The notes: generated by a model not told the origin, from the sequence alone. Shown: positions 17,425 to 59,492, numbered from the stretch's first letter. The stretch is 64,000 nucleotides of DNA from an uncultured Alphaproteobacteria bacterium (GCA_944390895.1 CALXRQ010000003.1:5550-69549); one strand, 5' to 3'. A program made the numbers and translations.

Positions 17425-17670
17425 TTATTCCGGTTTGATGAACATACTGCGCAAGGCTGCCATTCGTTTCTGTTTCAGAATCAGTTCATTTCTGCGGGTT
17501 TGTTTTTGCAGCCGCCGCTGTTTGGCAATGAGTAAAGTTTCTTTCAGACATTGACGATCCAAAGAAAGGCCGATGTTTTCCAACTCGTAGTCACGGGGGA
17601 GATAATTATATTTGTTTTCCAGTTCATTCAGTTTGGCGTCACTGAGTTGCAGATATTTTTTTATGTTCAT
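17425..17670 (-). CDS. Hypothetical small basic coiled-coil protein downstream of the phage repressor
   Basis: 81-aa ORF on the same strand immediately after the CI-like gene. K/R/Q-rich. Confidence 0.3.
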   Translation of the reverse strand: MNIKKYLQLSDAKLNELENKYNYLPRDYELENIGLSLDRQCLKETLLIAKQRRLQKQTRRNELILKQKRMAALRSMFIKPE

Positions 17671-17682
17671 AAGATTCTCTTT

Positions 17683-18312
17683 TTATTGTCCGGCCCAGAC
17701 GATGCGGTGTACCAGTTTCACGCTGCTGATGGCAATTTCGATATTTTCGTTGTCGCGCAACAGGTGTTTCAATATCAGGCTTGCAGCCGTTCTACGGACA
17801 AATTCATATAAGACGGCGGTACAGTCTTTTTTATAAACGACAACCCGATCTCCTTTACGGATGTCAGAGTTGCTGGCCGCCAAAATCACCGAACCGTCAC
17901 GATAGAGAGGAAAATATTCCTCATTGTCGATCTCTATGGCATAAAGCATATCTTTGTTGTCCGGAAAAATGATTTTTTTCCAGGAAGACGTGTTAAGTTC
18001 TCTGGCGATAAAGTCGTTTTTTTTGTTCAACTGGGAATATTTTATAAACGGAATCAATGGTTCGCTGCAGTCAATATCATCTTCAGCAGTGTCGCCCAGA
18101 GAGTAAAATTCTTCAAAATTCAGGCCGCATGTTTCCAGGATTTTGTTTATGCTTTCCATGGATGGCCATCTCTTGTTTCCGTCGGGACGGGTTCTCTTGC
18201 TTTTGTTAAATGTGGTCGCGTCAAGCCCGGCCAGTTTTGCCAGTCCAGAAGGTGACAATCCTTTGCTCTTGGCCAACTTATCAACAGCATTCCATATCTG
18301 TTCGTATTTCAT
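17683..18312 (-). CDS. Phage CI/LexA-type repressor (N-terminal HTH, C-terminal S24 peptidase-like domain)
   Basis: 209 aa. N-terminal HTH region WNAVDKLAKSKGLSPSGLAKLAGLDATTFNKSKR. C-terminal S24-like fold ...GDRVVVYKKDCTAVLYEF.... Divergent from the phage-like gene block. Confidence 0.78.
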   Translation of the reverse strand: MKYEQIWNAVDKLAKSKGLSPSGLAKLAGLDATTFNKSKRTRPDGNKRWPSMESINKILETCGLNFEEFYSLGDTAEDDIDCSEPLIPFIKYSQLNKKNDFIARELNTSSWKKIIFPDNKDMLYAIEIDNEEYFPLYRDGSVILAASNSDIRKGDRVVVYKKDCTAVLYEFVRRTAASLILKHLLRDNENIEIAISSVKLVHRIVWAGQ

Positions 18313-18370
18313 ATGAATACCTCTCCGTCTTGTTTTCTGGACGATATAATCACTATAAAATATTTTTAAA

Positions 18371-18447
18371 TAGGAATCAATTCTTTTTTATGTTGAAATT
18401 CCTACAACCTTATATATAAATTCTATTGGTTAACAATTAATTAATTG
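18371..18447. promoter_or_regulatory. Candidate operator/switch region between repressor and first rightward gene
   Basis: Inverted repeat TAGGAAT-N20-ATTCCTA (18371-18404) and a perfect 14-bp palindrome CAATTAATTAATTG (18434-18447) in an AT-rich divergent intergenic region. Confidence 0.35.
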
Positions 18448-18457
18448 AGAGGGAGAA

Positions 18458-18787
18458 ATGAGGGAAGATTTTGAACCTTTTGAAAACGCTGAAGAAGTTT
18501 GGTTCTGGTTTTGCACTTCAGCTTCTGCCAGAAGCGAAGGTCTGCGCTCAAAGAGCGATTATTGGGGAAAGCCGCGGTGCTGTGAACTGCCTGATATTCA
18601 GCAGATTATAAAGCAGATGAAACGTAACCGTCATCTGAACAACCGCCAGTTGCGCGTTATGGTCAAATGGGGACAGCTTCAGGTTCCGCCCTATTATGAG
18701 CGCAGCGCCAAAAGAAGCGAAATACGTCTGTGGGAAACGGCGATGCTGAATTTTGAGTTTTATCTGAAACGGCGACGCATACTTTAA
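18458..18787 (+). CDS. Hypothetical phage-like protein
   Basis: 109-aa ORF, first gene rightward of the repressor. GGAG-like SD (gagagggagaaATG). Confidence 0.45.
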   Translation: MREDFEPFENAEEVWFWFCTSASARSEGLRSKSDYWGKPRCCELPDIQQIIKQMKRNRHLNNRQLRVMVKWGQLQVPPYYERSAKRSEIRLWETAMLNFEFYLKRRRIL

Positions 18788-18798
18788 CGGGAGGCCTT

Positions 18799-19206
18799 AT
18801 GCGTAATTTGTATGATGATGTTTATTTCCGCCGCGGATATGTCGTATTTGAGGACAATACCACTCTGTGGTGGCTGCGTTTGCTGAAAAAGGGTTTCCGT
18901 CATTGTTATGTTCTGATAAAGCTGCGCGGAGGAAGAAATTCCTGGCTGGAGATCAATCCGCTGTCCAATCAGCTTGTTGTTTGCGAACATTATTCCTCGT
19001 CAGAGGAAGATTATCTTATCCGTTTGCGCCGGCGCCAGAATTGCCGTGTCATTGCCGCAGATTTTGTTCAGGCGCCGCCAAAATGTGCTCCGCTGGGCGT
19101 TTTCAGCTGTGTGGAATTTGTCAAAAGAATAGTCGGCATACATTGTTTTGGTATAATTACACCTTATCAATTGTATAAAAAATTAAAAAAAATCTCAAAA
19201 TTGTAG
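18799..19206 (+). CDS. Hypothetical phage-like protein
   Basis: 135-aa ORF tightly following the previous gene. Confidence 0.45.
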   Translation: MRNLYDDVYFRRGYVVFEDNTTLWWLRLLKKGFRHCYVLIKLRGGRNSWLEINPLSNQLVVCEHYSSSEEDYLIRLRRRQNCRVIAADFVQAPPKCAPLGVFSCVEFVKRIVGIHCFGIITPYQLYKKLKKISKL

Positions 19207-19217
19207 GAAAAAAGTCT

Positions 19218-19246
19218 TGACAAGCTGATTTTTTTCATATATACCG
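19218..19246 (+). promoter_or_regulatory. Sigma-70-like promoter upstream of the terminase region
   Basis: TTGACA (19218-19223), then a 15-nt spacer, then TATATA. Confidence 0.3.
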
Positions 19247-19336
19247 TAAAACATCACTTGCTAGTAGTGTATCTTAAATAAGTTAAGGGCTCTTTAACCG
19301 CATGCCGGTTTGGAGCTTTTTTTATTGGAGTTTTTT

Positions 19337-19651
19337 ATGTCTGCAAGGAAAATAAAAACGCTTCAGTCTTTGAAAGATGCATTGAAAAAAACGCTGCCGC
19401 AGCAAATCTCAAAAGTAATCCGCAGTTATGAGGATTTTTCCGAACAGCCGGTGCCCTGCGATGCCAAGGGGTTCGGAGCGCATCACAATGCCTGCAAATC
19501 GGCGGTGGTGCATGCCGAAACGCTTCTCAAGCTGGCCCGCTGGACCGAAGACGAGATAAAACTGCCGCCTGCGGAAGAAACGGACGGTTTTTTAGAACGT
19601 TTGCTTAACGAAGCAGAAGCGGAATGTGAACAATTTAAGGACGAAGAATGA
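19337..19651 (+). CDS. Hypothetical protein immediately upstream of, and overlapping, the terminase large subunit; possible small terminase subunit
   Basis: About 104 aa from MSARKIKTLQ (GGAG SD). Its stop overlaps the terminase ATG (ATGA). The positional argument is the only evidence. Confidence 0.35.
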   Translation: MSARKIKTLQSLKDALKKTLPQQISKVIRSYEDFSEQPVPCDAKGFGAHHNACKSAVVHAETLLKLARWTEDEIKLPPAEETDGFLERLLNEAEAECEQFKDEE

Positions 19652-21150
19652 CAAGGTTGCGAAAGAAAATCGGATTTTTCGGCTTTGTTTATGTCTGGAT
19701 GCGGCTTCAGGGATTAAACGTTCCCAAACACCAGAGAAAAATGTCACTCTGGCTGGAAAAACTCTGGAGCGGAACAGCTTCAAGGCAAGGTCTGCTGATG
19801 GCGTTTCGCAACTCCGGCAAGTCGACGATCGTCGGCTTGTTTTGCGCCTGGTGCCTGTATCGCAATTCTGCTCTGCGGATATTGGTTATGGCTGCGGATC
19901 ATGCGCTGGCAAAAAAGATGGTGCGCAATGTCAAGCGTATTATTGAACGCCATCCGCTTACCGCTGATATGAAACCGCCGCATCAGGACCAATGGGCTTC
20001 AGATCAGTTTACGATTCTTCGCGAGCGTGAACTGCGTGATCCGTCCATGCTGGCCAAAGGTCTGGGAGCCAACATCACCGGTCTGCGTGCGGATTTGATT
20101 ATCTGCGATGATGTGGAAGTGCCCAAAAATTGTGATTCGGCACTGAAGCGGCAGGAACTCAGAGCCCGGTTGGACGAGCTGGACTATATTCTGACGCCGG
20201 ACGGCATGCAGCTTTATATCGGGACGCCGCATACGTTTTATACCATATATCAAACCGGCTTTGATCGGTCACGGCCGGAACAGAAACCGTTTTTGCTGGA
20301 TTTTCAAAAAATGGAGATTCCCATTTTGGATGAAAACGGCAAATCAAACTGGCCGGAGCGTTTTTTTTTTTTTTTTTTTTCTTCTGTCCGGCAGCGTTCG
20401 GGGGAGAACAAATTCCTTTCGCAGATGATGCTGAAACCGGTTAACATCAAAGACAGTATTCTGGATCCGGAACGCCTTTGTCCGTATGACGGCGAAATCA
20501 GCGTCAGCTCTGCCAACGGACGCGATTGTTTGAAAATCGGCGGCCGCCGGATGCTTTCGGCCTCCTGCTGGTGGGATCCGTCTTTTGCTTCGGCCAAAGG
20601 GGACAATTCGGTCATTGCCTGTGTCTTTGTCGATGAGGAAGGACGCTATTGGCTGCATGATTTGGAGTATATCAAAATCAAAGGCGGTTCGGATGAAAAC
20701 ATTGCTTCGCAGCAATGCGGCGTTGTCGCCGCTTTCCTGGAACGCAATTGCCTGTCGTCGGTCAGGATTGAGGTCAACGGCATCGGAAAGTTTCTGCCGG
20801 GGATATTAAAACAGACGCTGCAAAAGAGAAATTACCGGGCCGCGGTGCTGGAAGCCAGTTCCAATGCCAATAAGGCGTTGCGCATTGTTCAGGCTTTTGA
20901 AGTGTTGCTGGCTGAAAGGGCTTTGAATGTTCATAAGAAAATATGGTCGACGCCGTTCATTGAAGAAATGCGCGAATTTTGTCCCGGCGGCACTCATCAC
21001 GACGATGCTCTTGACGCTGTCGCCGGATGTCTGGCTTCCGAGCCTGTGCGTCTGCCTGCTTTTGTGTCGGACGTTTCGCAAACGCGCATAAACACATGGC
21101 AGGGCACGAACCGTCAGTTTGCCGCCCGAACCGGATTTGACGTACTATAA
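19648..21150 (+). CDS. Phage terminase large subunit
   Basis: 500 aa. Walker A-like FRNSGKSTIVG. Walker B LIICDDVE. C-terminal nuclease-like region. Contains an in-frame T20 tract encoding FFFFFF. Confidence 0.82.
   Translation: MTRLRKKIGFFGFVYVWMRLQGLNVPKHQRKMSLWLEKLWSGTASRQGLLMAFRNSGKSTIVGLFCAWCLYRNSALRILVMAADHALAKKMVRNVKRIIERHPLTADMKPPHQDQWASDQFTILRERELRDPSMLAKGLGANITGLRADLIICDDVEVPKNCDSALKRQELRARLDELDYILTPDGMQLYIGTPHTFYTIYQTGFDRSRPEQKPFLLDFQKMEIPILDENGKSNWPERFFFFFFSSVRQRSGENKFLSQMMLKPVNIKDSILDPERLCPYDGEISVSSANGRDCLKIGGRRMLSASCWWDPSFASAKGDNSVIACVFVDEEGRYWLHDLEYIKIKGGSDENIASQQCGVVAAFLERNCLSSVRIEVNGIGKFLPGILKQTLQKRNYRAAVLEASSNANKALRIVQAFEVLLAERALNVHKKIWSTPFIEEMREFCPGGTHHDDALDAVAGCLASEPVRLPAFVSDVSQTRINTWQGTNRQFAARTGFDVL
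20361..20380 (+). repeat. Homopolymeric T20 tract inside the terminase CDS
   Basis: gagcg-T20-cttctg counted directly from the sequence. The frame is maintained (ERFFFFFFSSVRQ). Confidence 0.9.
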
Positions 21151-21162
21151 GGGATATAAACG

Positions 21163-21450
21163 ATGTTTAGTGAATTAACCAGCTGGGTAGCCATGGTCGA
21201 GCTCCCGGTTTTTGTGACATTGTTTCGAATGATGGCCAGAAACCGCAAAGAAACGGATCAAGATCTGGCGGTTTTGAAAAACAGTTCGGAAAAAGGCATG
21301 GCTTCCGTCAGGGAAGCTTTGGCTGACTTCAAGCTGCACGTTGCCAGAAACTATGTTTCCATCAACTATCTTAAAGATGTTGAAGACCGTTTAACCAATC
21401 ATTTATTGAGAATTGAAAAGAAACTAGACGAGGTGGGAAAAAACAGATGA
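21163..21450 (+). CDS. Hypothetical small membrane protein (phage-like)
   Basis: 95 aa. N-terminal hydrophobic segment WVAMVELPVFVTLF. Overlaps the next gene start. Confidence 0.4.
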   Translation: MFSELTSWVAMVELPVFVTLFRMMARNRKETDQDLAVLKNSSEKGMASVREALADFKLHVARNYVSINYLKDVEDRLTNHLLRIEKKLDEVGKNR

Positions 21451-21878
21451 CAAACTTAACAACCGATATTCTGGCCAAAACCATTTGGGGAGAGGCCAGG
21501 GGAGAACCGCTGGCCGGACAGGAGGCCGTGGCCATGGTCATTCTGAACCGGGTGGCGTTCAGCCGGAAACGCGGCGGAAAATACTGGTGGGGAAACGATA
21601 TTGCCGGGGTTTGCCAGAAACCGCGGCAGTTTTCTTGTTGGAACACCGATGATCCGAACTATCGCAAATTGCTGCGGGTTAACGATTCCGATCCTGTATA
21701 CGCGGCCTGCAAAAGGATAGCCGGACGGGCGGCCGCCGGTCTGCTGGAAGACAAAACCTGCGGCGCCACGCATTATCATGCCAGGAACGTTTGTCCCCGG
21801 TGGTCAATTGGCAAGATTCCCTGCGCGGAAATCGGCAGCCATGTTTTTTATAACGATATTGAGGAGAGCAAACGGTGA
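21447..21878 (+). CDS. Cell wall hydrolase, SleB/Hydrolase_2 family (endolysin-like)
   Basis: LAKTIWGEARGEPLAGQEAVAMVILNRV...QFSCWN...ATHYH matches the SleB-type hydrolase signature. Confidence 0.8.
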   Translation: MTNLTTDILAKTIWGEARGEPLAGQEAVAMVILNRVAFSRKRGGKYWWGNDIAGVCQKPRQFSCWNTDDPNYRKLLRVNDSDPVYAACKRIAGRAAAGLLEDKTCGATHYHARNVCPRWSIGKIPCAEIGSHVFYNDIEESKR

Positions 21879-22405
21879 TAAGCAAAGTTTTGGGAAAAAT
21901 CGGCCTGCCGATTTTGATAAAGTTTGTAAGTTCATCTTTGGGGCGTCTGGATGCCGATTGCGCCAAAAAAGCAGGTTCGGCGCTGCTTGATGTCAGCAGC
22001 GCCATCAAAAACCGCGAAATTTCTGCCGAGCAGATTTCCGAAGTCAATCGTCATGCGGAACGAATGCAGGAAATTGAAGGCGAATATGATGACAAAACCT
22101 TGGCAGTGATTAATGAAACCATTCGCCGCGAGATTGCTTCCGAGGATCGTTTTGTCCGCTTTTGGCGTCCGGCGTTCGGTTATTCGGTTGCCGCAGCCTG
22201 GCTGCTGACCATGTCTACAATTTGTTATGTGGTTTTGGCCGATTATCCCAATGCCGCCGATATTATCGGCGCTTTGGTGGAAACTACGTCGTTGTGGAGC
22301 GTGGCCCTGGGCGTACTGGGCATTTCCGTTGTCAAGCGCAGTCAGGAAAAGCAGAATGCCAAAAAGGAAGACATCTTGTCGAAAGTGGTCAATAAGATAA
22401 CCTAA
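21875..22405 (+). CDS. Putative membrane protein (possible holin-like lysis partner)
   Basis: 176 aa with two C-terminal hydrophobic helices. Translationally coupled to the lysin. The holin call rests on position only. Confidence 0.35.
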   Translation: MISKVLGKIGLPILIKFVSSSLGRLDADCAKKAGSALLDVSSAIKNREISAEQISEVNRHAERMQEIEGEYDDKTLAVINETIRREIASEDRFVRFWRPAFGYSVAAAWLLTMSTICYVVLADYPNAADIIGALVETTSLWSVALGVLGISVVKRSQEKQNAKKEDILSKVVNKIT

Positions 22406-22407
22406 AC

Positions 22408-22441
22408 TTAACTGCCCCGATTTTTTTTTCGGGGCTTTTTT
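22408..22441 (+). terminator. Rho-independent terminator
   Basis: GCCCCGAtttttttttTCGGGGCttttttt. Confidence 0.7.
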
Positions 22442-22468
22442 TATAACATAAATTATGAGGAGAAAGAA

Positions 22469-22681
22469 ATGGGAGGAGTATTCAGCGGCGGTTCGCCGAA
22501 AATAGAAGTCCCGGCGGCAGACACTTCGGCGCAGGATGCCGAAAAAAAGGCGGAAGAAGAGCGCAAAAAAGCGCTTGAGCGCCAGCGCCGGGGAATGGAC
22601 AGCACCATCCGCACGTCTTACAACGGATTGCTGGATTTGAAAAATATGGAACTGAACCGCAAAAAGCTGCTCGGAGAATAA
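22469..22681 (+). CDS. Hypothetical small charged protein preceding the portal gene
   Basis: 70 aa. GAGGAG SD. Confidence 0.4.
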   Translation: MGGVFSGGSPKIEVPAADTSAQDAEKKAEEERKKALERQRRGMDSTIRTSYNGLLDLKNMELNRKKLLGE

Positions 22682-22684
22682 CCG

Positions 22685-24193
22685 ATGAACGGTAAAATAG
22701 AAAAACTTATCGAACGCTTCAAAAGAGCGGAGAACCGAAAGCAGCAATGGCTTCCCCACTGGCAGGAATGTTACGAATATGCGCTGCCGCAGCGGGAAAA
22801 TGTCGGGATGACAAGTATCGGCACCGATTACGGAAGCAAAAAAAATCTGCATTTGTTTGACGGAACCGCACCTGATGCCGTCGATCAGCTGGCGTCTTCG
22901 CTTTTGTCGGAACTGACGCCGCCCTGGGCCAAATGGTTTGGCCTTAAAGGCGGTGAAGAACTCTCGGAGGAAGAACGTTCCCGGGTTGCGGAAACATTGG
23001 AAAAAACCTCGGAAATTATGATGCAGAATTTTGAGCATTCCAATTTTGCCGTGGAAATACATCAGTGCTATCTGGACTTGGTTACGGCCGGCACTGCCTG
23101 CCTGATGTTTGAAGAAGCGCCGGTCGGCGAGGCGTCGGCTTTCCGCTTTTATGCGGTTCCGTTGCGCGAGATTGCGTTGGAAGAAAGTCCGGACGGCAAA
23201 ATAGACACCACTTTCCGCTGTTCGCAAATCGGTTTGGAAAGTATTCGTCTCCGGTTTCCGAAAGCGGAAGTGCCGCCATTGTGGGAGGAGCGTTTTCGCT
23301 CCGACGGCGATTTTCGTCTGACCCTGATTGAGGCCGTTATTCCGCGGCACGGCAGTTTCGGGCAGTCGGGATATGAATATACGGCTTTCGTCTGGGACGA
23401 AAATTCCGGTCCCGAAGACAATCTGGTGCTGCGGGAAGGCGTTTTTGAAACCTCGCCGTTCATAAATTTCCGCTGGCTGAAAGCGCCGGGTGAGGTTTAC
23501 GGTCGTTCGCCGGTAATGAAAGCTTTGCCTGACATTAAAACCGCCAACAAGGTGGTGGAACTGATATTGAAAAACGCGTCAATTTCGGTGACCGGCATCT
23601 GGCAGGCCGATGATGACGGCATTCTCAATCCGGCCAACATCAAGCTCGTTCCCGGCGCCATCATTCCCAAGGCGGTCGGTTCCAAGGGACTGACGCCGCT
23701 TGAGGCACCGGGAAAATTTGACGTTTCGCAGTTGATTTTGGAAAATCTGCAAAGCCGGATAAACCACGCGCTGCTGGCCGATCGCCTTTCGCAGGTAAAT
23801 GTTCCGAATATGACGGCAACCGAGGTGTTGGAACGCTCGGCGGAAATTGCCCGCATCCTGGGCGCCAGCTTCGGACGTCTGCAAAGCGAACTTCTGACCC
23901 CGCTGCTGAAAAGGGCTTTTTACATTCTGCGTCGCCGCGGCGATATTATGAACTTTGATTTGGACGGCAAGATTGTCGACCTGCAGTATAAGTCTCCGCT
24001 GGCTTTGCTTCAGGCCAGACAAGACGTCAGCAATATCAGCGAATGGATCAATCTGGTAACGGCGTTGGGCATGGACGGGCTTTCGGCGGTCAATATGTTT
24101 GAAGCCGCCAAAACCCTGGGACGGATTCTGAACGTTCCGGCAACGCTGATTAACGAACAACCGCAGGGAAATATTGCCGATGCCGCTGAATGA
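22685..24193 (+). CDS. Phage portal (head-to-tail connector) protein
   Basis: 502 aa. Its position before scaffold/capsid and its size fit a podovirus connector. The assignment rests on context and general resemblance, not on a strict motif. Confidence 0.7.
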   Translation: MNGKIEKLIERFKRAENRKQQWLPHWQECYEYALPQRENVGMTSIGTDYGSKKNLHLFDGTAPDAVDQLASSLLSELTPPWAKWFGLKGGEELSEEERSRVAETLEKTSEIMMQNFEHSNFAVEIHQCYLDLVTAGTACLMFEEAPVGEASAFRFYAVPLREIALEESPDGKIDTTFRCSQIGLESIRLRFPKAEVPPLWEERFRSDGDFRLTLIEAVIPRHGSFGQSGYEYTAFVWDENSGPEDNLVLREGVFETSPFINFRWLKAPGEVYGRSPVMKALPDIKTANKVVELILKNASISVTGIWQADDDGILNPANIKLVPGAIIPKAVGSKGLTPLEAPGKFDVSQLILENLQSRINHALLADRLSQVNVPNMTATEVLERSAEIARILGASFGRLQSELLTPLLKRAFYILRRRGDIMNFDLDGKIVDLQYKSPLALLQARQDVSNISEWINLVTALGMDGLSAVNMFEAAKTLGRILNVPATLINEQPQGNIADAAE

Positions 24194-24416
24194 ATATAAC
24201 GCCTCGGCATTGCCGGATGAAGAAGTCCGGCGGATGTTTGCCGGGTGTTTTATAACCGGAGAGGGCAGATTCGTCCTCTCTTTTTTGAAAAAAGTAACTC
24301 TTGAGCGCTGCCTCGGTCCCGATGCCTCAGATGCCGAACTTAGGTATCTGGAAGGGCAGAGACGTTTAGTGAAATATATTGAGGCGCTCAGCGGTTGCAA
24401 AAAATCTGATTTTTAG
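24174..24416 (+). CDS. Hypothetical small protein overlapping the portal 3' end
   Basis: 80-aa ORF in an alternate frame. Confidence 0.3.
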   Translation: MPMPLNEYNASALPDEEVRRMFAGCFITGEGRFVLSFLKKVTLERCLGPDASDAELRYLEGQRRLVKYIEALSGCKKSDF

Positions 24417-24428
24417 AAAGGAACAAAA

Positions 24429-25139
24429 ATGCAAAGTCAGGAAAATGAAAATCTGCTGAATGTTTCCGCATCGCGGCAGTCTTCCGGCCAGACGTCCGGG
24501 CGTCCGTCCGGTCTGCCGGATGCTTTCTGGGACGAACAGAAAAAACAGGTGAAACTTGATGAACTTATTGCCGCTTATAATGATCTGGCCAAACGGGACG
24601 ACAATCTGGTGGAGACCAATCTCCGCAATATTCCCGAAAGCTATGACCAGTATCGCATCAACATTCCGAGCCCGCTGTTGGATGTGGATGAAGACATCTT
24701 AAAAAGGTTCTATGAAAAAGGATTTACCAACGAGCAGGCGCAGCTGGTCTATGATTTGGCGGGCGAAAGGGTTCTGCCGGTACTGGATGAGATGAGCGTC
24801 AATTTTGAAGCGGAACGCCAGCTGGAAAAACTGGCTCGTCACTTTGGCGGCCGCGACAAGTTTAACGAGGTTTCGCGTCAGCTTTCGGCCTGGGCAAAAC
24901 AAAATGTCAATCCCGAGGTCTATGATGCGCTGGCCTCCACTTCCGAGGGCGTCATTGCGCTTTACAATATGATGTCTTCCGCCGAACCGTCCTTGTTGAA
25001 AGAGGGCGCGGAGACCGGAGAACTGAGTGAGGCCAGTCTGCGGAAAATGATGGAAGATCCGCGCTATTGGCGGGATAAGGACAGCGCTTATATCGCCAAA
25101 ATAACCCGCGGTTTTGAAAAGCTTTATCCGGAAAAATAA
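24429..25139 (+). CDS. Putative scaffolding (capsid assembly) protein
   Basis: 236 aa, acidic and predicted helical. Lies between portal and capsid, as in T7-like gene order. Confidence 0.45.
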   Translation: MQSQENENLLNVSASRQSSGQTSGRPSGLPDAFWDEQKKQVKLDELIAAYNDLAKRDDNLVETNLRNIPESYDQYRINIPSPLLDVDEDILKRFYEKGFTNEQAQLVYDLAGERVLPVLDEMSVNFEAERQLEKLARHFGGRDKFNEVSRQLSAWAKQNVNPEVYDALASTSEGVIALYNMMSSAEPSLLKEGAETGELSEASLRKMMEDPRYWRDKDSAYIAKITRGFEKLYPEK

Positions 25140-25211
25140 AATAGTAACGTGTTTTAACCTGAAAAGTCCGCTTCTCCGAAAGCGGATTTTTGCAAATATA
25201 AGGAAAAGATT

Positions 25212-26036
25212 ATGTCTACAGAAGTATCCAAGTCGTTTATCAAAAATTTTGAAGCCGATGTGCATCTGGCTTATCAGCAGATGGGTTCAAAATTGAAAAA
25301 TACCGTTCGTTATAAAAATAATGTCAAAGGTTCGTCAACCGTGTTTCAGCGCGTCGGCAAGGGCATTGCTTCCGGCAAGGCGCGTCACGGCCTGGTTCCG
25401 GTCATGAGCATTGATCATACGCCGATTGAGTGCGAATTGCAGGACTATTATGCCGGTGATTGGGTCGATGCTTTGGACGAGTTGAAGCTCAGCATTGACG
25501 AACGCCGCGTTATCGCTTCTTCAGGCGCTTATGCGCTGGGACGCAAAACCGACGAACTGATTATTGACGCGCTGAGCAAAGCCTCAAATGCCAACGATGT
25601 CGGCGATTATACCAAGGCTTTGTCCAAAACCGACATCTTGAACGCTTTTGCCAAGCTCAACGAAAATGACGTTCCCGACGACGGACAGCGTTTTGGCATT
25701 GTCGGCCCGTTGCAATGGAATGCGCTGCTCAACATTGCCGAGTTTTCCAATTCTGATTATGCCGGTGACAATCTACCGTTCCTGAAGGGCACCGAAAGCC
25801 GCAAATGGCTGGGCATTAACTGGATTATGCATACCGGTTTGCCGCTTTCCGGCACCAACCGCGACTGTTTTATCTTTCATAAAACGGCGGTCGGCCATGC
25901 TTCGGGGCAGGACGTCAAGTCTGACATCACCTGGCACGGCGACCATGCGGCGCACTTTGTCAATAATATGATGAGCCAGGGTGCCTGCCTGATTGATGAA
26001 ACCGGCATTGTCCGCATCAAATGCAAAGAAGCTTAA
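25212..26036 (+). CDS. Putative major capsid protein
   Basis: 274 aa. Position after the scaffold gene. Strong SD. Followed by a small gene and a strong terminator, as with T7 gene 10 and its T-phi terminator. Confidence 0.55.
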   Translation: MSTEVSKSFIKNFEADVHLAYQQMGSKLKNTVRYKNNVKGSSTVFQRVGKGIASGKARHGLVPVMSIDHTPIECELQDYYAGDWVDALDELKLSIDERRVIASSGAYALGRKTDELIIDALSKASNANDVGDYTKALSKTDILNAFAKLNENDVPDDGQRFGIVGPLQWNALLNIAEFSNSDYAGDNLPFLKGTESRKWLGINWIMHTGLPLSGTNRDCFIFHKTAVGHASGQDVKSDITWHGDHAAHFVNNMMSQGACLIDETGIVRIKCKEA

Positions 26037-26061
26037 TTTTTTATTATCAAGGAGAAAACAT

Positions 26062-26322
26062 ATGTCATTAAACACCAAAGATTTAAGCGTGATGGCCTAC
26101 GCCAACGGCTTTACGCTGTGGAGCTATTCCACGGCCGATGCGTTAACCGCCGTGAAAGGAGCCGGCTATTTTAACGATGCGGCGCCGTTTGTCCGTCCCG
26201 GCGATATGATTTTGGTTTCCGCTTCCAAAGACAGCGCGATTGAACCTGCCGTGCTGGCGGTAACCGCCGTTGCCGCCGCATCCGTTACGGTCACTTCCGT
26301 TGCGCCGGCCGCGGCAGCCTAG
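26062..26322 (+). CDS. Small structural protein with Ala/Val-rich C-terminal tail (minor capsid or decoration candidate)
   Basis: About 86 aa from MSLNTKDL (GGAG SD). C-terminus VLAVTAVAAASVTVTSVAPAAAA. Confidence 0.4.
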   Translation: MSLNTKDLSVMAYANGFTLWSYSTADALTAVKGAGYFNDAAPFVRPGDMILVSASKDSAIEPAVLAVTAVAAASVTVTSVAPAAAA

Positions 26323-26345
26323 TTTTTAACCCGATACCTGTTAGC

Positions 26346-26385
26346 AAATGATGAGAGAGTCCCCCTGTGGGACTCTCTTTTTTTT
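26346..26385 (+). terminator. Strong rho-independent terminator after the capsid module
   Basis: AGAGAGTCCCCctgtGGGACTCTCTttttttttt. Confidence 0.75.
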
Positions 26386-26408
26386 TACAAAACGAAGGAA
26401 TTTATAAT

Positions 26409-26978
26409 ATGAACTATTCCAGCATCAGTTTATGTTCCAAGGCTCTGCTTAAAATCGGAGCTTCCAGCATCACTTCTTTTGAGGAGGGAACGGCTGAGGG
26501 GGAAGTTGCCGCCAATCTGTACCCTTATATTCGCGACGGTCTGCTGTCTTCATATCCGTGGAGTTTTGCCGTGGCGCAGGTACGTCTGGGGCGCCTGGAA
26601 ACCGCGCCGCTGGCAGATTACCGTTATGCCTATCTGCTGCCCTCTGATCTTTTGCGGATTATCTCCGCCGGTTCTCAGGGGCGGGGACGCGGTGTGGAAT
26701 ATCGTGTCGTTGAAGATAAGCTCCATACCGATATGACGGAGGTTAACCTGACCTATATTTACCGTCCCGATGAAAGCGTTTTTCCGGCTTATTTTTGCGA
26801 AGCGCTGATTAATAAGCTGGCGTTTGAGTTTTGCATTCCGCTGACAGAGAGTTCGACCCGGGCCGAATTTTTAAGCAAAATTGCCGAAGATTCGGTCAGT
26901 CGTGCCCGTTCGATTGATGCGCAGCAGGATACGCCCGGACGTTTTGAAGACTTTACGCTGGTGGAGGTGCGAAAATGA
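26409..26978 (+). CDS. Tail tubular protein A-like (T7 gp11-sized)
   Basis: 189 aa from MNYSSISL (AAGGAA SD). The track's upstream ATG lies inside the terminator hairpin. Assignment by synteny and size only. Confidence 0.4.
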   Translation: MNYSSISLCSKALLKIGASSITSFEEGTAEGEVAANLYPYIRDGLLSSYPWSFAVAQVRLGRLETAPLADYRYAYLLPSDLLRIISAGSQGRGRGVEYRVVEDKLHTDMTEVNLTYIYRPDESVFPAYFCEALINKLAFEFCIPLTESSTRAEFLSKIAEDSVSRARSIDAQQDTPGRFEDFTLVEVRK

Positions 26979-28873
26979 ATCAGATTTCGGTCAAAACCAA
27001 TTTCACTTCGGGGCAATTGTCTCCGAATTTGTATGGCCGCGGAGATTTGCGCATTTACGAAAACGGAGCGCGTACGCTGCAAAATGTCATCATCTATCCG
27101 ACCGGCGGCGTCTCCAGGCGTCCGGGACTGCAATATATTGACGAGCTTTCCGGCCCCGGACGTCTGATTGCTTTTGAGTTCAATACCGAACAAACCTATC
27201 TGCTGTGCTTTTCCGATAAAAAACTGCGGGTTTATAAGGACGGAGTCAATATCAGCGAGCTTGAAACGCCGTGGACGGAAGAGCAGATAAAGAAAATAAA
27301 CTGGACCCAGAGCGCAGACACGCTGCTGGTTGTTCATCCCGATGTGGAGCCGCGCCAGATCAGCCGCAATGCCAATGAGGTCTGGATGATTGAACCTTGG
27401 GAATATTATCAGAAGGACGGTTGTCTGTATTGCCCTTATTTCAATTTTTATCAAAACAAGGTCAAGCTCACGCCCGGCGGTACCGGCGGAAACATAACCC
27501 TGACGGCGGATGCGGATATTTTTTCGGCTGCGTTTGTCGGTGTTCGCATTAAAATCAATTCGGGAGAAGCGGTTATAACTTCCGTGACCGATTCCAGACA
27601 TTGTCAGGCCGATGTCAAAAAAGGGCTTTCCGGCACCGGCGCGTCTTCAGATTGGGAAGAGCAGGCCTTTTCGCCCGTCCGCGGATATCCGAACTCGGTC
27701 ACCTTTCACCAGGACCGGATGGTTATCGGCGGTTCTAAGAGTCTGCCTAATCGTTTGTGGCTTTCCAAGTCGTCGGATTTGTTCAATTTTGACATCGGCA
27801 CCGGTCTGGATGACGAAGCGATTGATTTTGCCATTTTGTCCGATCAGGTAAACGCCGTGACCAATGTCGTTTCGACCAGACACCTGCTGGTTTTTACTAC
27901 CGGCGCCGAATGGATGGTGTCGGGCGAACCGCTGACGCCGTCCAGCATCAGGCTTAACCGCCAGACCAACATCGGCAGCTATGCCAAATATTCTCTGCCG
28001 CCGCAAAATATTGACGGCGCCACGACCTTTATTTCGCAAAACGGCCGCCAGTTGCGCGAATTTTTGTATACGGATGTTGAACAGGCCTATCAGGCCAAGG
28101 ATCTGACGCTGATGTCCGACAATATAATCGACAAGCCGGTGGACGGCGTGTACTATCAGGACAACAGCGTATTGTACATAATTTTGGAAGACGGTACCGT
28201 CTCCTGCCTGACCACTTATCGCACCGAGGAAGTCAACGCCTGGAGCAAACTCAGGACGCAGGGCGATTTTACGTCCGTTGCCGCCATCGGAGACGGGCTT
28301 TATTTTATTGTCCGCCGCCGGGAGAATTATTATCTGGAGCGTTTTAGTCCCGGATGTTTTGTGGACGGCTGTGTTTCTCTCCGTTCCGAAACGCCCAAAA
28401 AAGACTGGGACGGGTTGGACTATCTGGAAGGCGAGAAGGTGCAGGTTGTCGCCGATGATTTTACCGTCGGCGATTTCGAGGTAAAAAACGGCCGGATAAC
28501 TTTGTTTGAAGAAGCTTCGGACATAACGGTCGGACTGCCTTATGAACATATTATCGAGCCGCTGCCTTTTGTCTGCGAGGCCAATAAACCTTATCCGCCG
28601 AAAGCCTACCGCATCATTCAGGGAATTTTCCGCATTATCTCGTCAAAATCGTTGAAGCTTAATTACGGCAGCGGTTATGTCGAAGTTCCGCTGAAAAAAA
28701 TGTATTGGGATCAGATTCTCGATTCGCCGCCGCAATTGTTTAACGGAGATGTCATTTTACGCTCCATCGGCTGGATTCGCGATTTGGAAAAACCGATGTG
28801 GAGTATCAAAAGCGAAATTCCCTGCGAATTTACGCTGCTTTCCGTTGTTAACGAAATCAAAACCAAAGATTAG
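26975..28873 (+). CDS. Tail tubular protein B-like (T7 gp12-like)
   Basis: 632 aa, beta-rich. ATGA-coupled to the upstream gene. Assignment by synteny only. Confidence 0.45.
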   Translation: MNQISVKTNFTSGQLSPNLYGRGDLRIYENGARTLQNVIIYPTGGVSRRPGLQYIDELSGPGRLIAFEFNTEQTYLLCFSDKKLRVYKDGVNISELETPWTEEQIKKINWTQSADTLLVVHPDVEPRQISRNANEVWMIEPWEYYQKDGCLYCPYFNFYQNKVKLTPGGTGGNITLTADADIFSAAFVGVRIKINSGEAVITSVTDSRHCQADVKKGLSGTGASSDWEEQAFSPVRGYPNSVTFHQDRMVIGGSKSLPNRLWLSKSSDLFNFDIGTGLDDEAIDFAILSDQVNAVTNVVSTRHLLVFTTGAEWMVSGEPLTPSSIRLNRQTNIGSYAKYSLPPQNIDGATTFISQNGRQLREFLYTDVEQAYQAKDLTLMSDNIIDKPVDGVYYQDNSVLYIILEDGTVSCLTTYRTEEVNAWSKLRTQGDFTSVAAIGDGLYFIVRRRENYYLERFSPGCFVDGCVSLRSETPKKDWDGLDYLEGEKVQVVADDFTVGDFEVKNGRITLFEEASDITVGLPYEHIIEPLPFVCEANKPYPPKAYRIIQGIFRIISSKSLKLNYGSGYVEVPLKKMYWDQILDSPPQLFNGDVILRSIGWIRDLEKPMWSIKSEIPCEFTLLSVVNEIKTKD

Positions 28874-28888
28874 AAAGGAAAACCGACC

Positions 28889-29251
28889 ATGGGTGGAATC
28901 TCAATGGCAACGGCCGCCGGAACCGGTTTGGCTGCCATGAATTTGTTAAACGATACCAGAAAAAACAATCAGCAGATGAAATATCTGCGTCAGGATCAGC
29001 AGGCGGCCGCGGCCAAACGCAAAAACCTGCTCAACCAGCAGTTGGCAACGCGCCGTGCCGGCCTTGGCGCCATGGGCATTACGTCCAGCAAGTCGTCTGC
29101 CGCCGTGCAGCAGCGCCTGGCGCGGGAGACTTATGACGACATTGCCGAAGATGAGACGGATTATAAACGCAGATACGCCGGTTTGCAGCAGCAAAACAGC
29201 AGCAATTTATTCAATACCGCGCTGTCCGCAGCCGGAAAACTGATTAAGTGA
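28889..29251 (+). CDS. Hypothetical virion-associated protein
   Basis: 120 aa, Gln/Ala-rich. Confidence 0.4.
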   Translation: MGGISMATAAGTGLAAMNLLNDTRKNNQQMKYLRQDQQAAAAKRKNLLNQQLATRRAGLGAMGITSSKSSAAVQQRLARETYDDIAEDETDYKRRYAGLQQQNSSNLFNTALSAAGKLIK

Positions 29252-29255
29252 GGAA

Positions 29256-29456
29256 ATGACCATGCCCCGAACTAAAATGACCTATGCTGAAAAACGCCGC
29301 CGTGCTTATAATCGGCAGATACCGCTGACAGATCAGCTCGACGCCGTTCTGAAAGCCTTTGATATGGTGCTGCAAGACGGCGGTGACCTGCCTTACGAGT
29401 TGATAGACGTTATTGAAAAATGGCAGGACATCAAAGCCAAATATCCCAAGGAATGA
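29256..29456 (+). CDS. Hypothetical small protein
   Basis: 66 aa. Confidence 0.35.
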   Translation: MTMPRTKMTYAEKRRRAYNRQIPLTDQLDAVLKAFDMVLQDGGDLPYELIDVIEKWQDIKAKYPKE

Positions 29457-29492
29457 CAACCGGCGCCTCTTGACGGGGCGCCGTTTTTTATT
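29457..29492 (+). terminator. Rho-independent terminator closing the phage-like block
   Basis: CGGCGCCtcttgacgGGGCGCCGttttttat. Confidence 0.75.
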
Positions 29493-35210: not shown

Positions 35211-35308
35211 ACCCTCCTAAAAATGTTTACAAAACTAAATATATTAACAAACGGTTAACTTTCCAGAGGGGTAAAACTATTTATCATATATGCAAAAATA
35301 ATTCTATT

Positions 35309-56132: not shown

Positions 56133-56379
56133 TTTTTAAAAAGCTTTGTCGCGTCCATGGTTTCTTTTTAGCGAATATATAAAATATTATGTTATTGGAG
56201 GTGCTTTCAGCCTAAAAATACATAACATAGTAAGTAAAAGTAGTCTTTTCAATAAACTATACACTTTTTTTAATTCATATTTCTTTTTTTAATTGTACTT
56301 TTTTTCAGGTGTTTGTATAGTTGAAGCATAAGTAATATAAAATTTAACAATTGTCAGAATTAAGTAGTGGTTAAATACA

Positions 56380-59377: not shown

Positions 59378-59492
59378 TTTAAATGGCTTTCATATTGATG
59401 ATGTCTGTTTCATAGTAGTGTAAATGAGATATAATGCAAGTAAGTTTAGAATTTTATACCTTGTTGAAAAAAAGCGCTAAAATCTGGTCATA

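What the first reader, a model, noticed from the sequence alone, without database searches (positions are those of the whole stretch)
17425..29492. Minimal podovirus-style head-and-tail-tube cassette with a repressor but no replication, integration, core or fibre genes: candidate GTA-like or domesticated particle locus
Seen in sequence: about 12 kb carry a divergent CI/LexA-type repressor and about 20 co-directional, tightly coupled ORFs. These include a terminase large subunit, a SleB-type lysin with a membrane partner, a portal, a scaffold-like protein and a capsid-like protein, followed by a strong terminator (analogous to T7 T-phi after gene 10), then a 189-aa and a 632-aa protein in the positions of T7 tail tubular proteins A and B, then two small ORFs and a terminator. 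All ORFs look intact. Nothing resembling an integrase, DNA polymerase/primase, internal core proteins, a tail fibre or att repeats is present. Housekeeping genes (prfB-side hydrolases/AsmA-like; esterase, SBP, mlaC, gltX) flank it directly. Inference: this is either a heavily reduced defective prophage under purifying selection, or a host-maintained particle system (gene-transfer-agent-like, or satellite/PICI-like) of podovirus ancestry. To my knowledge that would be unusual, since described GTAs are siphovirus- or myovirus-like.
Basis: partly seen in the sequence, partly recalled or inferred. Interest (0 to 1): 0.78.

Follow-up and report, generated by a model that had tools for sequence, protein, structure and literature searches.

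The report
Domesticated podovirus-like particle gene cassette
A 12-kb set of intact short-tailed-phage head, tail, DNA-packaging and lysis genes sits at one fixed chromosomal site in about 27 species of gut alphaproteobacteria and evolves in step with them, so it is most likely a host-kept, gene-transfer-agent-like particle system of a viral ancestry not yet described for this bacterial class.

Summary
Window 17425-29492 holds a divergent CI/LexA-fold repressor and 18 co-directional genes: putative TerS, TerL, SleB-type lysin, holin, T7-type portal, scaffold, capsid, adaptor and nozzle. It has no integrase, replication genes, fibre, large core proteins or att repeats, and housekeeping genes flank it directly.

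The cassette is colinear and at the same site (YhdP | esterase-MlaC-gltX) in about 27 gut alphaproteobacterial species. All ORFs are intact. Cassette dN/dS is 0.05-0.13 (capsid 0.016), like the flanks. Cassette and flank divergence correlate (Mantel r 0.93). Codon usage matches the host.

A wider family occurs in Azospirillum, Magnetospirillum, Caenispirillum, Terasakiella, Micavibrio and others. The two right ends examined and three left flanks showed no integrase or replication genes, only host genes; host genes are even inserted inside some copies. Most of these copies keep a T7-type fibre.

Control looks lambdoid: repressor, early operon with a weakly Q21-like protein, then a conserved late promoter, leader and terminator. 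Outside the gut clade the repressor keeps its self-cleavage residues and about half of early promoters carry a LexA box. In the gut clade the catalytic Ser is lost (29/30) and a TTAA-N7-TTAA box replaces the LexA box (30/30).

Particle production and DNA transfer are untested.

The parts
17425..17670 (-). o81, small ORF downstream of the repressor; function unknown
   Evidence: Homologues only in the closest species (window, L001, L003-L011). No Pfam or PHROG hit.
17683..18312 (-). Rep: CI/LexA-fold repressor (N-terminal HTH, C-terminal S24-like domain) whose catalytic Ser is lost in this clade
   Evidence: PF00717 E 1.5e-4, PF13443 E 3e-3, phrog_4 E 2.7e-9. The G[DN]SM[ED]P Ser and the Lys are kept in 76/79 non-gut relatives. 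The Ser is lost in 29/30 gut-clade copies; the window reads IDNEEYFP.
18371..18444 (+). Early promoter/operator region: TAGGAAT (18371-18377) and ATTCCTA (18398-18404) around the -35 TTGAAA (18393-18398); -10 at about 18415-18421; TTAA-N7-TTAA box at 18430-18444
   Evidence: Conserved in all 30 gut-clade loci. The box is exact in 30/30. At the same position, 31/73 non-gut relatives carry an exact GTTC-N7-GTTC (39/73 with one mismatch).
18458..18787 (+). o109: early gene, candidate Q-type antiterminator or sigma-region-4-like DNA-binding protein
18799..19206 (+). o135: early gene, predicted permuted papain-fold (NlpC/P60, YiiX-like) cysteine peptidase; substrate unknown
19204..19327 (+). Late promoter module: TAGGAA (19204-19209), -35 TTGACA (19217-19222), -10 at about 19240-19245, conserved leader (CACTTGCTAGTAGTGTATC), intrinsic terminator hairpin plus U-run (19285-19327)
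   Evidence: Conserved across the gut clade. Fold; sequence. The same module precedes the portal block in Rhodospirillales and is duplicated around cargo genes in L041 and L061. It is the only exact TAGGAA-N7-TTGAC in the window.
19337..19651 (+). o113: candidate small terminase subunit (by position only)
   Evidence: It lies immediately upstream of TerL and overlaps it in both gene orders wherever it was detected. phrog_31793 E 1.9e-35. dN/dS 0.065.
19648..21150 (+). TerL, large terminase subunit
   Evidence: phrog_38 E 4.4e-77; PF17289 E 2.4e-8. dN/dS 0.056.
21163..21450 (+). o95: small membrane/coiled-coil protein of the lysis block
   Evidence: phrog_29007 E 9.5e-34. It sits between TerL and the endolysin in most family loci where it was detected. 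dN/dS 0.043.
21447..21878 (+). SleB-type cell-wall hydrolase (endolysin)
   Evidence: PF07486 E 3.5e-19; phrog_938 endolysin.
21875..22405 (+). Holin (GTA_holin_3TM family)
   Evidence: PF11351 E 2.9e-10; phrog_3427 holin.
22414..22435 (+). Internal intrinsic terminator after the lysis block
   Evidence: Conserved only in the closer species, 11/31.
22469..22681 (+). o70: small conserved protein (MGG...RRRG...LLGE) directly before the portal gene; possibly a small virion protein
   Evidence: Homologues precede the portal gene in gut and Rhodospirillales loci. dN/dS 0.095.
22685..24193 (+). Portal (T7-type head-to-tail connector)
   Evidence: PF12236 E 5.5e-133; phrog_332 E 2.7e-114. dN/dS 0.042.
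24174..24416 (+). Bbp19-like small phage protein
   Evidence: PF25181 E 7.3e-13.
24429..25139 (+). Scaffolding protein (T7 gp9 family)
   Evidence: PF05396 E 7.1e-18.
25212..26036 (+). Major capsid protein
   Evidence: PF19821 E 3e-75; phrog_3437 E 1.7e-79. Matches 9eg4_A, the LME-1 T=7 capsid protein, at E 1.7e-27. dN/dS 0.016. ENC 37.8, the lowest in the window.
26062..26322 (+). 86-aa protein in the position of a head-decoration gene
   Evidence: phrog_18004 E 1.5e-17. Conserved MAYANGFTLW motif across the family. Gene calls of 86 aa. Same position as the LME-1 decoration gene.
26353..26379 (+). Strong intrinsic terminator between the head and tail genes
   Evidence: 11-bp stem plus T-run. 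Conserved in 29/32 gut-clade loci.
26409..26978 (+). Adaptor (T7 gp11-type)
   Evidence: phrog_394 E 5.3e-50; phrog_9239 tail tubular protein. 8ck1_E connector E 1.4e-5; 9efk_T.
26975..28873 (+). Nozzle (T7 gp12-type)
   Evidence: phrog_376 E 3.3e-151; PF25675 E 2.7e-11. 8ck1_A tail nozzle E 2.5e-62; 9efk_M E 6.4e-35. 'Tail tubular protein B' of pelagiphages, E about 1e-77.
28889..29251 (+). o120: small Gln-rich protein after the nozzle gene; possibly a small internal virion protein
   Evidence: No family hit. dN/dS 0.106. Not homologous to the fibre N-terminal domain.
29256..29456 (+). o66: last small ORF of the cassette
   Evidence: phrog_2504 E 9e-5. 54-100% identical across the gut clade.
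29461..29483 (+). Terminal intrinsic terminator
   Evidence: 9-bp stem with 8 GC pairs, plus T-run.

Best explanation
This is a chromosomally fixed, vertically inherited cassette that descends from a T7-like/LME-1-like short-tailed phage. The host keeps it to make DNA-filled, podovirus-like particles that are released by lysis. In other words, it is a gene-transfer-agent-like element (viriform).

Shown here:
- The cassette encodes an intact head (portal, scaffold, capsid, candidate decoration protein), a packaging motor (TerL plus a putative TerS), a minimal tail (adaptor plus nozzle) and a lysis set (SleB-type lysin, holin, o95).
- It has no means of replication, excision or integration.
- It has occupied one site in about 27 species under strong purifying selection, with host-like codon usage.

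Inferred control circuit:
1. Rep holds the early promoter off.
2. When repression is lifted, the early operon makes o109 and o135.
3. o109, a candidate Q-type antiterminator, modifies RNA polymerase at the late promoter (TAGGAA-N7-TTGACA). Transcription then reads through the leader terminator and the internal terminators, expressing TerS through o66.

In relatives outside the gut clade, the trigger should be DNA damage, because Rep keeps its self-cleavage residues and about half of early promoters carry an alphaproteobacterial LexA box. In the window's clade, Rep has lost its catalytic Ser and the LexA box is replaced by a TTAA-N7-TTAA (CtrA-type) box. Induction is therefore probably handed over to a host regulator.

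Inferred output: the terminase packages chromosomal DNA in situ by headfuls, the cell lyses, and the particles deliver DNA to related cells. No fibre or large ejection protein is encoded in cis, so either these are supplied from elsewhere in the genome or uptake depends on the recipient.
For: - Gene content.
- No mobility or replication genes and no att repeats.
- Same locus and same gene order in L001-L026 and L029.
- An identical nozzle protein on more than 22 contigs from many samples, always in this context.
- All ORFs intact in about 30 species.
- dN/dS: cassette 0.05-0.13 versus flanks 0.03-0.09. Per gene 0.016-0.13, except the 86-aa ORF whose start was mis-set.
- Cassette versus flank protein distances: Mantel r 0.93, 0/2000 permutations.
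- GC3 and ENC equal to host genes.
- Wider family (Azospirillum, Magnetospirillum, Caenispirillum, Skermanella, Roseospira, Terasakiella, Rhodovibrio, Micavibrio): housekeeping genes at the three left flanks examined and at the two right ends examined, no integrase or replication genes, left flanks shared across genera, capsid clusters over 90% identical spanning whole genera, and host genes inserted inside some copies.
- No relative with above 43% capsid identity among 50,697 phage records, apart from one 5-kb faecal-sample fragment that is itself a piece of the cassette.
- All IMG/VR relatives that include the left end have the same Rep-first layout.
- Regulatory anatomy.
- o109 resembles Q21 and AlpA.
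- Rep catalytic residues.
- Motif identities from the literature: LexA box PMC4951493; CtrA box and CtrA control of GTAs PMC9437464.
Against: - There is no experimental evidence for particles, packaged DNA or transfer.
- No receptor-binding fibre or large ejection protein is found in the cassette or in the 64-kb window, so infectivity of the particles is unexplained.
- The nearest solved capsid is T=7, about 60 nm. If that size is retained, a head could hold the whole 12-kb cassette, which departs from the classical GTA criterion.
- The TTAA-N7-TTAA box lies downstream of the -10, a repressor-like position. It could equally be a drifted LexA or Rep site. I did not check whether this clade has CtrA.
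- The host genes used for the co-divergence test are physically linked to the cassette.
Confidence: 0.6

Rival explanations
1. A selfish 'lateral-transduction' element. The cassette packages itself together with flanking chromosome into a T=7-size head. It then enters new cells by RecA-dependent homologous recombination through those flanks. It needs no integrase and always lands at the same locus.
For: - The nearest solved capsid is T=7, about 60 nm, so capacity would exceed the 12-kb cassette plus flanks.
- Synonymous divergence in the centre of the cassette (0.15-0.43) is lower than at its edges and in the flanks (0.7-1.7). Several species pairs have cassettes much more alike than their flanks (residuals). 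Recent exchange would produce this pattern.
Against: - Overall the cassette co-diverges with its flanks (r 0.93).
- No empty site was seen.
- Host genes inserted within the element in other lineages, and its split or rearranged forms, argue for long residence.
- Low dS can reflect codon bias instead; the capsid gene has the lowest ENC in the window.
- No fibre for entry.
Confidence: 0.15
2. A domesticated element kept for a purpose other than gene transfer. Examples: regulated altruistic lysis (as in AlpR/AlpA-AlpBCDE), anti-phage interference through capsid or terminase, or DNA release for biofilm or nutrition.
For: - The repressor, Q-like antiterminator and lysis-gene logic resembles AlpR/AlpA.
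- The fibre and large ejection proteins are missing in the gut clade and in some other minimal copies.
Against: - Capsid, portal, scaffold, adaptor, nozzle and terminase are all under very strong constraint (dN/dS 0.016-0.06). That is hard to explain if only lysis mattered.
- Most family members keep a T7-type fibre with a variable distal part, the hallmark of a receptor-binding function.
Confidence: 0.12
3. A decaying defective prophage remnant with no current function.
For: Integrase, replication, fibre and core genes are absent.
Against: - Every ORF is intact, with conserved length, in about 30 species whose flanking proteins have diverged to 40-60% identity.
- dN/dS is 0.05-0.13.
- Promoters, operators and terminators are conserved.
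Confidence: 0.03
4. An ordinary temperate podophage, or a phage satellite (PICI-like), whose missing functions lie elsewhere or come from a helper.
For: - The CI-type repressor and the lambdoid early/late layout.
- IMG/VR pipelines call these regions proviruses.
Against: - Housekeeping genes abut both ends here and at the two right ends examined in cultured relatives.
- No integrase, att repeats or replication genes.
- Fixed locus across species.
- No free-phage relative closer than 43% capsid identity.
Confidence: 0.03

Closest known systems
RcGTA-type gene transfer agents (Rhodobacter capsulatus; Rhodogtaviriformidae)
   Same: - Alphaproteobacterial, chromosomal and integrase-less phage-derived head, tail and lysis genes.
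- Vertical inheritance and purifying selection.
- A holin of the same Pfam family (GTA_holin_3TM) next to a cell-wall hydrolase.
- Possible CtrA-type control in the gut clade.
   Different: - Unrelated structural module. RcGTA has an HK97-type head with a prohead protease and a siphovirus tail. This cassette has a T7-type portal, scaffold, adaptor and nozzle, and no protease or tail tube.
- A cis-encoded repressor plus a Q-like early gene, instead of GafA and host-only control.
[quoted passage not shown] This family is in Rhodospirillales-type lineages, Micavibrio and gut alphaproteobacteria.
FpGTA of Faecalibacterium prausnitzii (PMC12946183, 2026)
   Same: A gut-bacterial, GTA-like element with inferred podovirus-like morphology.
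   Different: - It is in Firmicutes and is split over two loci that include baseplate, fibre and RBP genes.
- It has experimental packaging data, which are lacking here.
- I did not compare the sequences.
Legionella phage LME-1, marine phage Carin-1 and HTVC010P-type pelagiphages (T7-like virion architecture)
   Same: - Homologous capsid, adaptor and nozzle proteins: 9eg4, 9efk and 8ck1 and pelagiphage proteins.
- Same local gene order: capsid, small protein, adaptor, nozzle.
   Different: - These are 30-36-kb phages with replication genes, fibres and ejection proteins.
- Capsid identity is only 43% or less.
- The cassette is 12 kb and immobile.
AlpR/AlpA (Pseudomonas aeruginosa) and lambdoid Q-dependent late control
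   Same: - A LexA/CI-like repressor sits next to a small antiterminator gene.
- A strong late promoter is followed by a leader and a terminator upstream of the lysis and morphogenesis genes.
   Different: - No detectable sequence similarity, and only weak structural similarity.
- In the window's clade the repressor has lost its autoprotease serine.
'Ancient prophage' of Sphingomonadales (Viswanathan et al. 2017, PMC5381585)
   Same: - An integrase-less block of about 18 kb with capsid and portal genes, conserved in order across genera and interpreted as an ancient integration.
- One of its ORFs has homologues in Magnetospirillum.
   Different: I could not establish homology to this family, because no sequences or tables were available. 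That paper did not recognise a podovirus-type or GTA-like nature.

Membership tests
Gene transfer agent / viriform (general definition, Kogay et al. 2022, PMC9662315) | Caudovirus-derived structural, packaging and lysis genes encoded in the cellular chromosome | tested here: met
Gene transfer agent / viriform (general definition, Kogay et al. 2022, PMC9662315) | No capacity for autonomous replication, excision or integration | tested here: met
   No integrase, replication genes or att repeats. Housekeeping genes lie at both ends. The same holds at the two right ends examined in cultured relatives.
Gene transfer agent / viriform (general definition, Kogay et al. 2022, PMC9662315) | Evolves in concert with the host: conserved locus, co-divergence, purifying selection | tested here: met
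   Same site in about 27 species. Mantel r 0.93. dN/dS 0.05-0.13. Host-like codon usage.
Gene transfer agent / viriform (general definition, Kogay et al. 2022, PMC9662315) | Particles carry essentially random host DNA, and at most part of the encoding locus | not testable with these tools
   Requires sequencing of DNase-protected DNA. The nearest solved capsid is T=7. If that size is retained, a head could hold the whole 12-kb cassette.
Gene transfer agent / viriform (general definition, Kogay et al. 2022, PMC9662315) | Delivers DNA to recipient cells | not testable with these tools
   No fibre or large ejection protein in cis. Experimental test needed.
Gene transfer agent / viriform (general definition, Kogay et al. 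2022, PMC9662315) | Production under host regulatory control | tested here: inconclusive
   Exact TTAA-N7-TTAA box in 30/30 gut-clade early promoters, and a LexA-type GTTC-N7-GTTC in 31/73 others. The Rep autoprotease is lost in the gut clade. Binding proteins were not identified.
RcGTA-like head-tail cluster | Homology to the RcGTA structural genes (HK97 capsid with prohead protease, siphovirus tail genes) | tested here: not met
   The structural genes hit T7-type families only; only the holin family is shared.
Autographivirus-type (T7-like) phage | T7-type portal, scaffold, capsid, adaptor and nozzle module | tested here: met
Autographivirus-type (T7-like) phage | Phage RNA polymerase, DNA replication genes, internal core proteins gp14-16 and fibre gp17 | tested here: not met
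   None found by Pfam, PHROGs or the fibre HMM.
Integrated temperate prophage | Integrase/recombinase, att repeats, replication module, sporadic distribution | tested here: not met
Phage satellite (PICI / capsid-forming PICI) | Integrase, own replication initiator, helper-dependent mobility | tested here: not met
   No integrase or replication genes, and a fixed locus.
Q-type (Q21/AlpA-like) antitermination module | Small regulator with the Q fold | tested here: inconclusive
Q-type (Q21/AlpA-like) antitermination module | Strong promoter, then a conserved promoter-proximal element, then an intrinsic terminator upstream of the late genes | tested here: met
LexA/CI S24 self-cleaving repressor | Catalytic Ser-Lys dyad | tested here: not met
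   The window's Rep lacks the Ser (IDNEEYFP) and the Lys. The dyad is present in 76/79 non-gut relatives.

The most novel reading that the evidence does not exclude
The cassette is one member of a previously unrecognised family of podovirus-derived gene transfer agents that spans several orders. The family is inherited vertically through Rhodospirillales-type alphaproteobacteria, Micavibrio and the gut clade. These are exactly the deep alphaproteobacterial lineages that lack RcGTA. In the gut lineage the element has been further domesticated: its fibre gene was lost, its repressor's SOS self-cleavage was inactivated, and its LexA box was replaced by a CtrA-type box.
Probability: 0.45. Interest if true: 0.9.

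Novelty: new variant of a known kind. Interest (0 to 1): 0.82.

Why it matters
Only a handful of GTA families are known, and none of the alphaproteobacterial ones is of podovirus type.

If this family makes transfer-competent particles, several things follow:
- It would be an independent domestication event.
- It would show that GTA-like exchange is not confined to the RcGTA-bearing half of the Alphaproteobacteria.
- It would give culturable models (Azospirillum, Magnetospirillum, Terasakiella, Caenispirillum).
- It would add a candidate vehicle for host-DNA mobilisation in the human gut.

The family also offers a natural series of domestication steps that can be compared directly:
- fibre present or lost;
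- host genes inserted or not;
- SOS-coupled or uncoupled;
- LexA box or CtrA-type box.

Finally, it carries two uncharacterised conserved early proteins: a Q-like factor and a permuted papain-fold peptidase.

Tried and rejected
- Megablast of the block against 50,697 phage records found nothing.
- An exact look-up of the portal protein found no record.
- Profile searches of o109 and o135 against PDB sequences gave only chance-level hits.
- A Foldseek PDB search with the o109 model was not significant.
- I searched for a fibre by tblastn and by an HMM of the conserved fibre N-terminal domain. I tested whether o120 is a fibre stub. Both were negative in the window and in all gut-clade loci.
- The variable gaps after o66 in some species hold a lysozyme-like 233-aa protein, small membrane proteins or an OMP barrel, not fibres.
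- The second TTAA-N7-TTAA at 19283 is not conserved in other species, so I dropped it as a regulatory site.
- I considered that the mitomycin-induced particles of about 10 kb reported for Azospirillum lipoferum (cited in PMC3899980) might be this element. That paper attributes them to RcGTA-like genes, and I could not link them to this family.
- The link to the Sphingomonadales 'ancient prophage' could not be verified because no supplementary data were held.
- Recurrent 18.19-kb contigs carrying the cassette looked like a discrete molecule. They start at the o161/o81 junction and run into host genes, so I treat them as assembly breaks; this remains unexplained.

Full report
**1. What is there**

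Window 17425-29492 contains two minus-strand ORFs and 18 plus-strand ORFs. The minus-strand ORFs are o81 and a 209-aa repressor, Rep.

Pfam and PHROGs identify the following:
- TerL
- a SleB-type Hydrolase_2 lysin
- a GTA_holin_3TM holin
- a T7-type portal (E 5.5e-133)
- a Bbp19-like protein
- a T7 gp9-type scaffold
- a capsid protein (PF19821, E 3e-75)
- an adaptor (phrog_394, E 5e-50)
- a nozzle (phrog_376, E 3e-151)

Comparison with solved structures agrees:
- The nozzle matches 8ck1_A 'tail nozzle' at E 2.5e-62 and LME-1 orf18.
- The adaptor matches 8ck1_E and 9efk_T.
- The capsid matches 9eg4_A of Legionella phage LME-1 at E 1.7e-27.

LME-1 has a T=7, about 60-nm head and a T7-like tail (PMC12407071).

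Strong intrinsic terminators lie at 22414, 26353 and 29461.

Nothing resembles an integrase, a replication protein, a large core protein or a fibre. There are no att-like repeats.

The flanks are host housekeeping genes:
- Left: PBP1a, prfB, a hydrolase and YhdP.
- Right: an esterase, a solute-binding protein, MlaC, gltX and cysS.

The rest of the window is also host DNA: glycogen, flagellar, murein and other genes.

**2. Conservation**

I scanned one genome per species with the portal protein. The scan found more than 589 relatives.

In L001-L026 and L029, all uncultured gut alphaproteobacteria, the whole cassette is colinear. It lies between the same host genes as in the window.

Within the window's own species, an identical nozzle protein occurs on more than 22 contigs from many samples. 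The context is always the same.

ORF lengths are almost invariant across about 30 species.

Selection and divergence:
- Nei-Gojobori dN/dS for the cassette is 0.05-0.13. The flanking host genes give 0.03-0.09.
- Per gene: capsid 0.016, adaptor 0.036, portal 0.042, TerL 0.056, nozzle 0.060. The small ORFs give 0.04-0.13.
- Protein distances of cassette genes and of flanking host genes correlate, with Mantel r = 0.93 and 0 of 2000 permutations as high (27 taxa).
- GC3 and effective codon number match the host genes. The capsid gene is the most codon-biased gene in the window.

This is the signature of a vertically inherited, functional host locus. It is not the signature of a sporadic or decaying prophage.

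**3. A wider family**

Portal relatives at 53-61% identity occur in Magnetospirillum/Phaeospirillum, Caenispirillum, Telmatospirillum, Terasakiella, Thalassospiraceae and others.

Exact look-ups add Azospirillum (many species), Skermanella, Rhodospira/Roseospira, Rhodovibrio, Magnetovibrio and Micavibrio. In each case a single 90%-identity capsid cluster spans several species of a genus. The proteins are named only 'phage capsid protein' or 'hypothetical'.

In these lineages the gene order is the canonical T7 one: Rep(-), o109, o135, small ORF, portal, Bbp19, scaffold, capsid, 86-aa protein, adaptor, nozzle, fibre, putative TerS, TerL, o95, lysin, holin.

Evidence that these copies are also fixed in the chromosome:
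- Host genes lie directly left of Rep. I examined three representative flanks. They hold class-I lysS, a GDSL lipase and a DinG-like helicase; TrkH and a Cys/Met PLP enzyme; and SecDF.
- Left flanks are shared within large groups of loci that span genera and families.
- I examined two right ends. They run straight into host genes: GcrA and EamA in Terasakiella SH-1, and ptsN-rpoN-lptBAC-kdsD in Caenispirillum bisanense.
- No integrase or replication gene appears in any of these flanks.
- Host-type genes have been inserted inside the element in some lineages: an ODP metallo-beta-lactamase plus an MCP-signalling gene on the opposite strand, a GGDEF-EAL protein, and a toxin-antitoxin-SecB set.
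- IMG/VR provirus calls often start exactly at Rep, and many are 15-25 kb long.

The nearest isolated phages are distant. HTVC010P-type pelagiphages, Methylophilales phage MEP301 and about 32-kb Vibrio podophages have capsid identity of 43% or less.

[quoted passage not shown] They are absent from Rhodospirillales and Micavibrio (PMC5721377). The two element types therefore appear largely complementary in range. If the Sphingomonadales 'ancient prophage' proved to be this family (section 6), both types would occur in that order.

**4. What the gut-clade version has lost**

Most non-gut copies encode a fibre after the nozzle gene. Its N-terminal domain of about 170 aa is conserved in at least 46 loci and gives weak PF03906 'T7 tail fibre' hits. 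The distal parts vary and include F5/8-type-C and laminin-G domains.

Neither tblastn nor an HMM of that domain finds anything in the window, in the gut-clade loci, or in a few other minimal copies (L035, L063/64, L072, L079).

In the gut clade the TerS-TerL-lysis block has moved in front of the portal gene. Only two small ORFs follow the nozzle gene.

**5. Regulation**

*Early promoter.* The Rep|o109 intergenic region is conserved in all gut-clade species. It reads TAGGAAT-N20-ATTCCTA around a -35 TTGAAA, then a -10, then an exact TTAA-N7-TTAA. The box is exact in 30/30 loci.

At the same position, 31 of 73 non-gut relatives carry an exact GTTC-N7-GTTC (39/73 with one mismatch). None carries TTAA-N7-TTAA. 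GTTC-N7-GTTC is the alphaproteobacterial LexA motif (PMC4951493). TTAA-N7-TTAA is the CtrA motif, and CtrA controls known GTAs (PMC9437464).

*Repressor.* Rep keeps the S24 catalytic Ser and Lys in 76/79 non-gut copies. In the gut clade the Ser is lost in 29/30 copies and the Lys is kept in only 13/30.

The gut lineage therefore appears to be uncoupled from the SOS response at two levels. Whether CtrA, LexA or Rep binds the new box is untested.

*Late promoter.* Downstream of o135 lies a second conserved module: TAGGAA-N7-TTGACA, a -10, a conserved leader, and an intrinsic terminator immediately before the first late gene.

The same module precedes the portal block in Rhodospirillales. It is duplicated around inserted cargo in L041 and L061. 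The head/tail terminator is conserved in 29/32 gut-clade loci.

This is the design of Q-dependent late control.

No homologue of either protein carries a name or a Pfam domain.

**6. Interpretation**

The shown facts point to a domesticated particle-production locus:
- immobility
- a fixed locus
- co-divergence with the host
- strong constraint on every structural gene
- host-like composition
- host genes inserted into some copies
- conserved regulatory DNA
- rewiring away from the SOS response

A gene-transfer-agent-like role is the most economical reading for a locus that keeps capsid, portal, terminase, tail and lysis genes. It is inference only.

Open problems:
- The fibre and ejection proteins are missing in cis.
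- The head size is unknown. If T=7 is retained, a head could carry the cassette plus its flanks. That keeps open a self-transmitting 'lateral transduction' reading.
- Synonymous divergence dips in the centre of the cassette. This fits either codon bias or recombination.

Literature searches found no description of this family as a GTA or as a podovirus-type element.

The closest published items are two:
- FpGTA in Faecalibacterium, stated by its authors to be the first podovirus-like GTA-like element (PMC12946183).
- An integrase-less 'ancient prophage' of Sphingomonadales, whose identity with this family I could not verify (PMC5381585).

**7. Verdict**

I rate the novelty as a new variant of a known kind, and the interest as high.

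Noticed in passing
window 56360-56374: A TTAA-N7-TTAA (CtrA-type) box lies in the intergenic region upstream of flgI (54949-56073, minus strand). Another lies at 35244-35258. All four such boxes in the window are intergenic (4 found, 1.9 expected by chance).
   Followed up: partly
window 59000-62200: A low-GC stretch (0.39-0.41) carries an SNF2-related protein (59493-60815) and a PAPS-reductase/DUF3440 protein (60812-62113). It may be a DNA-modification or defence islet.
   Followed up: no
L037 12698-14204; L038 12509-14064; L146 5832-8177; L164 11647-12906: Host-type genes are inserted inside the element in other lineages. Magnetospirillum-group loci carry an ODP metallo-beta-lactamase plus an MCP-signalling gene on the opposite strand, between the scaffold and capsid genes. 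Azospirillum carries a GGDEF-EAL protein. Caenispirillum carries a Gp49/HTH/SecB toxin-antitoxin-chaperone set after TerL.
   Followed up: partly
L041 9322-10001; L061 6610-9651: The late promoter-leader-terminator module is duplicated, with the two copies bracketing inserted cargo genes. The module apparently travels as a unit.
   Followed up: no
L124, L137, L142, L152, L159: In a marine Rhodospirillaceae/Thalassospiraceae lineage the order is capsid, adaptor, nozzle, o113, portal, scaffold. No Rep, o109, o135 or TerL was detected in the sequence held for these loci (short or provirus-trimmed contigs), so the element may be rearranged or split there.
   Followed up: no
cassette genes, window 19337-26036 versus the edges and flanks: Synonymous divergence between close species is 0.15-0.43 in the centre of the cassette (o113 to the capsid gene). 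It is 0.7-1.7 at the cassette edges and in the flanking host genes. Codon bias or recent recombination could explain this.
   Followed up: partly
L165 and cluster members: Many independent assemblies give contigs of 18,187-18,196 bp carrying this cassette. L165, the one retrieved, starts 42 bp before o81, and the length implies an end in host DNA beyond cysS. This is probably a recurrent assembly break, but the cause is unknown.
   Followed up: partly
L081 (MT838907.1): A 5-kb 'Bacteriophage sp.' contig from Mexican human faecal samples is a fragment of a related cassette (o70 to the adaptor gene, 56-81% identity). It is deposited as viral.
   Followed up: partly
L025, L032, L054, L055, L069: Genome bins labelled Lactobacillaceae, Lactobacillus, Limiplasma, Bacteroidota and Solirubrobacterales carry the element with alphaproteobacterial flanks. 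These are probably mis-binned or mislabelled contigs.
   Followed up: no
L002 9696-10394; L003 16789-17487; L166 12778-13374: The variable slot between o66 and the esterase gene holds different genes in different species. Two species have a 233-aa lysozyme-like protein, several have an 86-aa membrane protein, and some strains of the window's own species have an OMP beta-barrel gene.
   Followed up: partly
window 16920-17405: o161 is translationally coupled to YhdP and conserved in the gut clade. It hits phage family phrog_13623 (E 1.5e-17) and is included in IMG/VR provirus calls. It is absent next to Rep in other lineages, so whether it belongs to the cassette is unclear.
   Followed up: no
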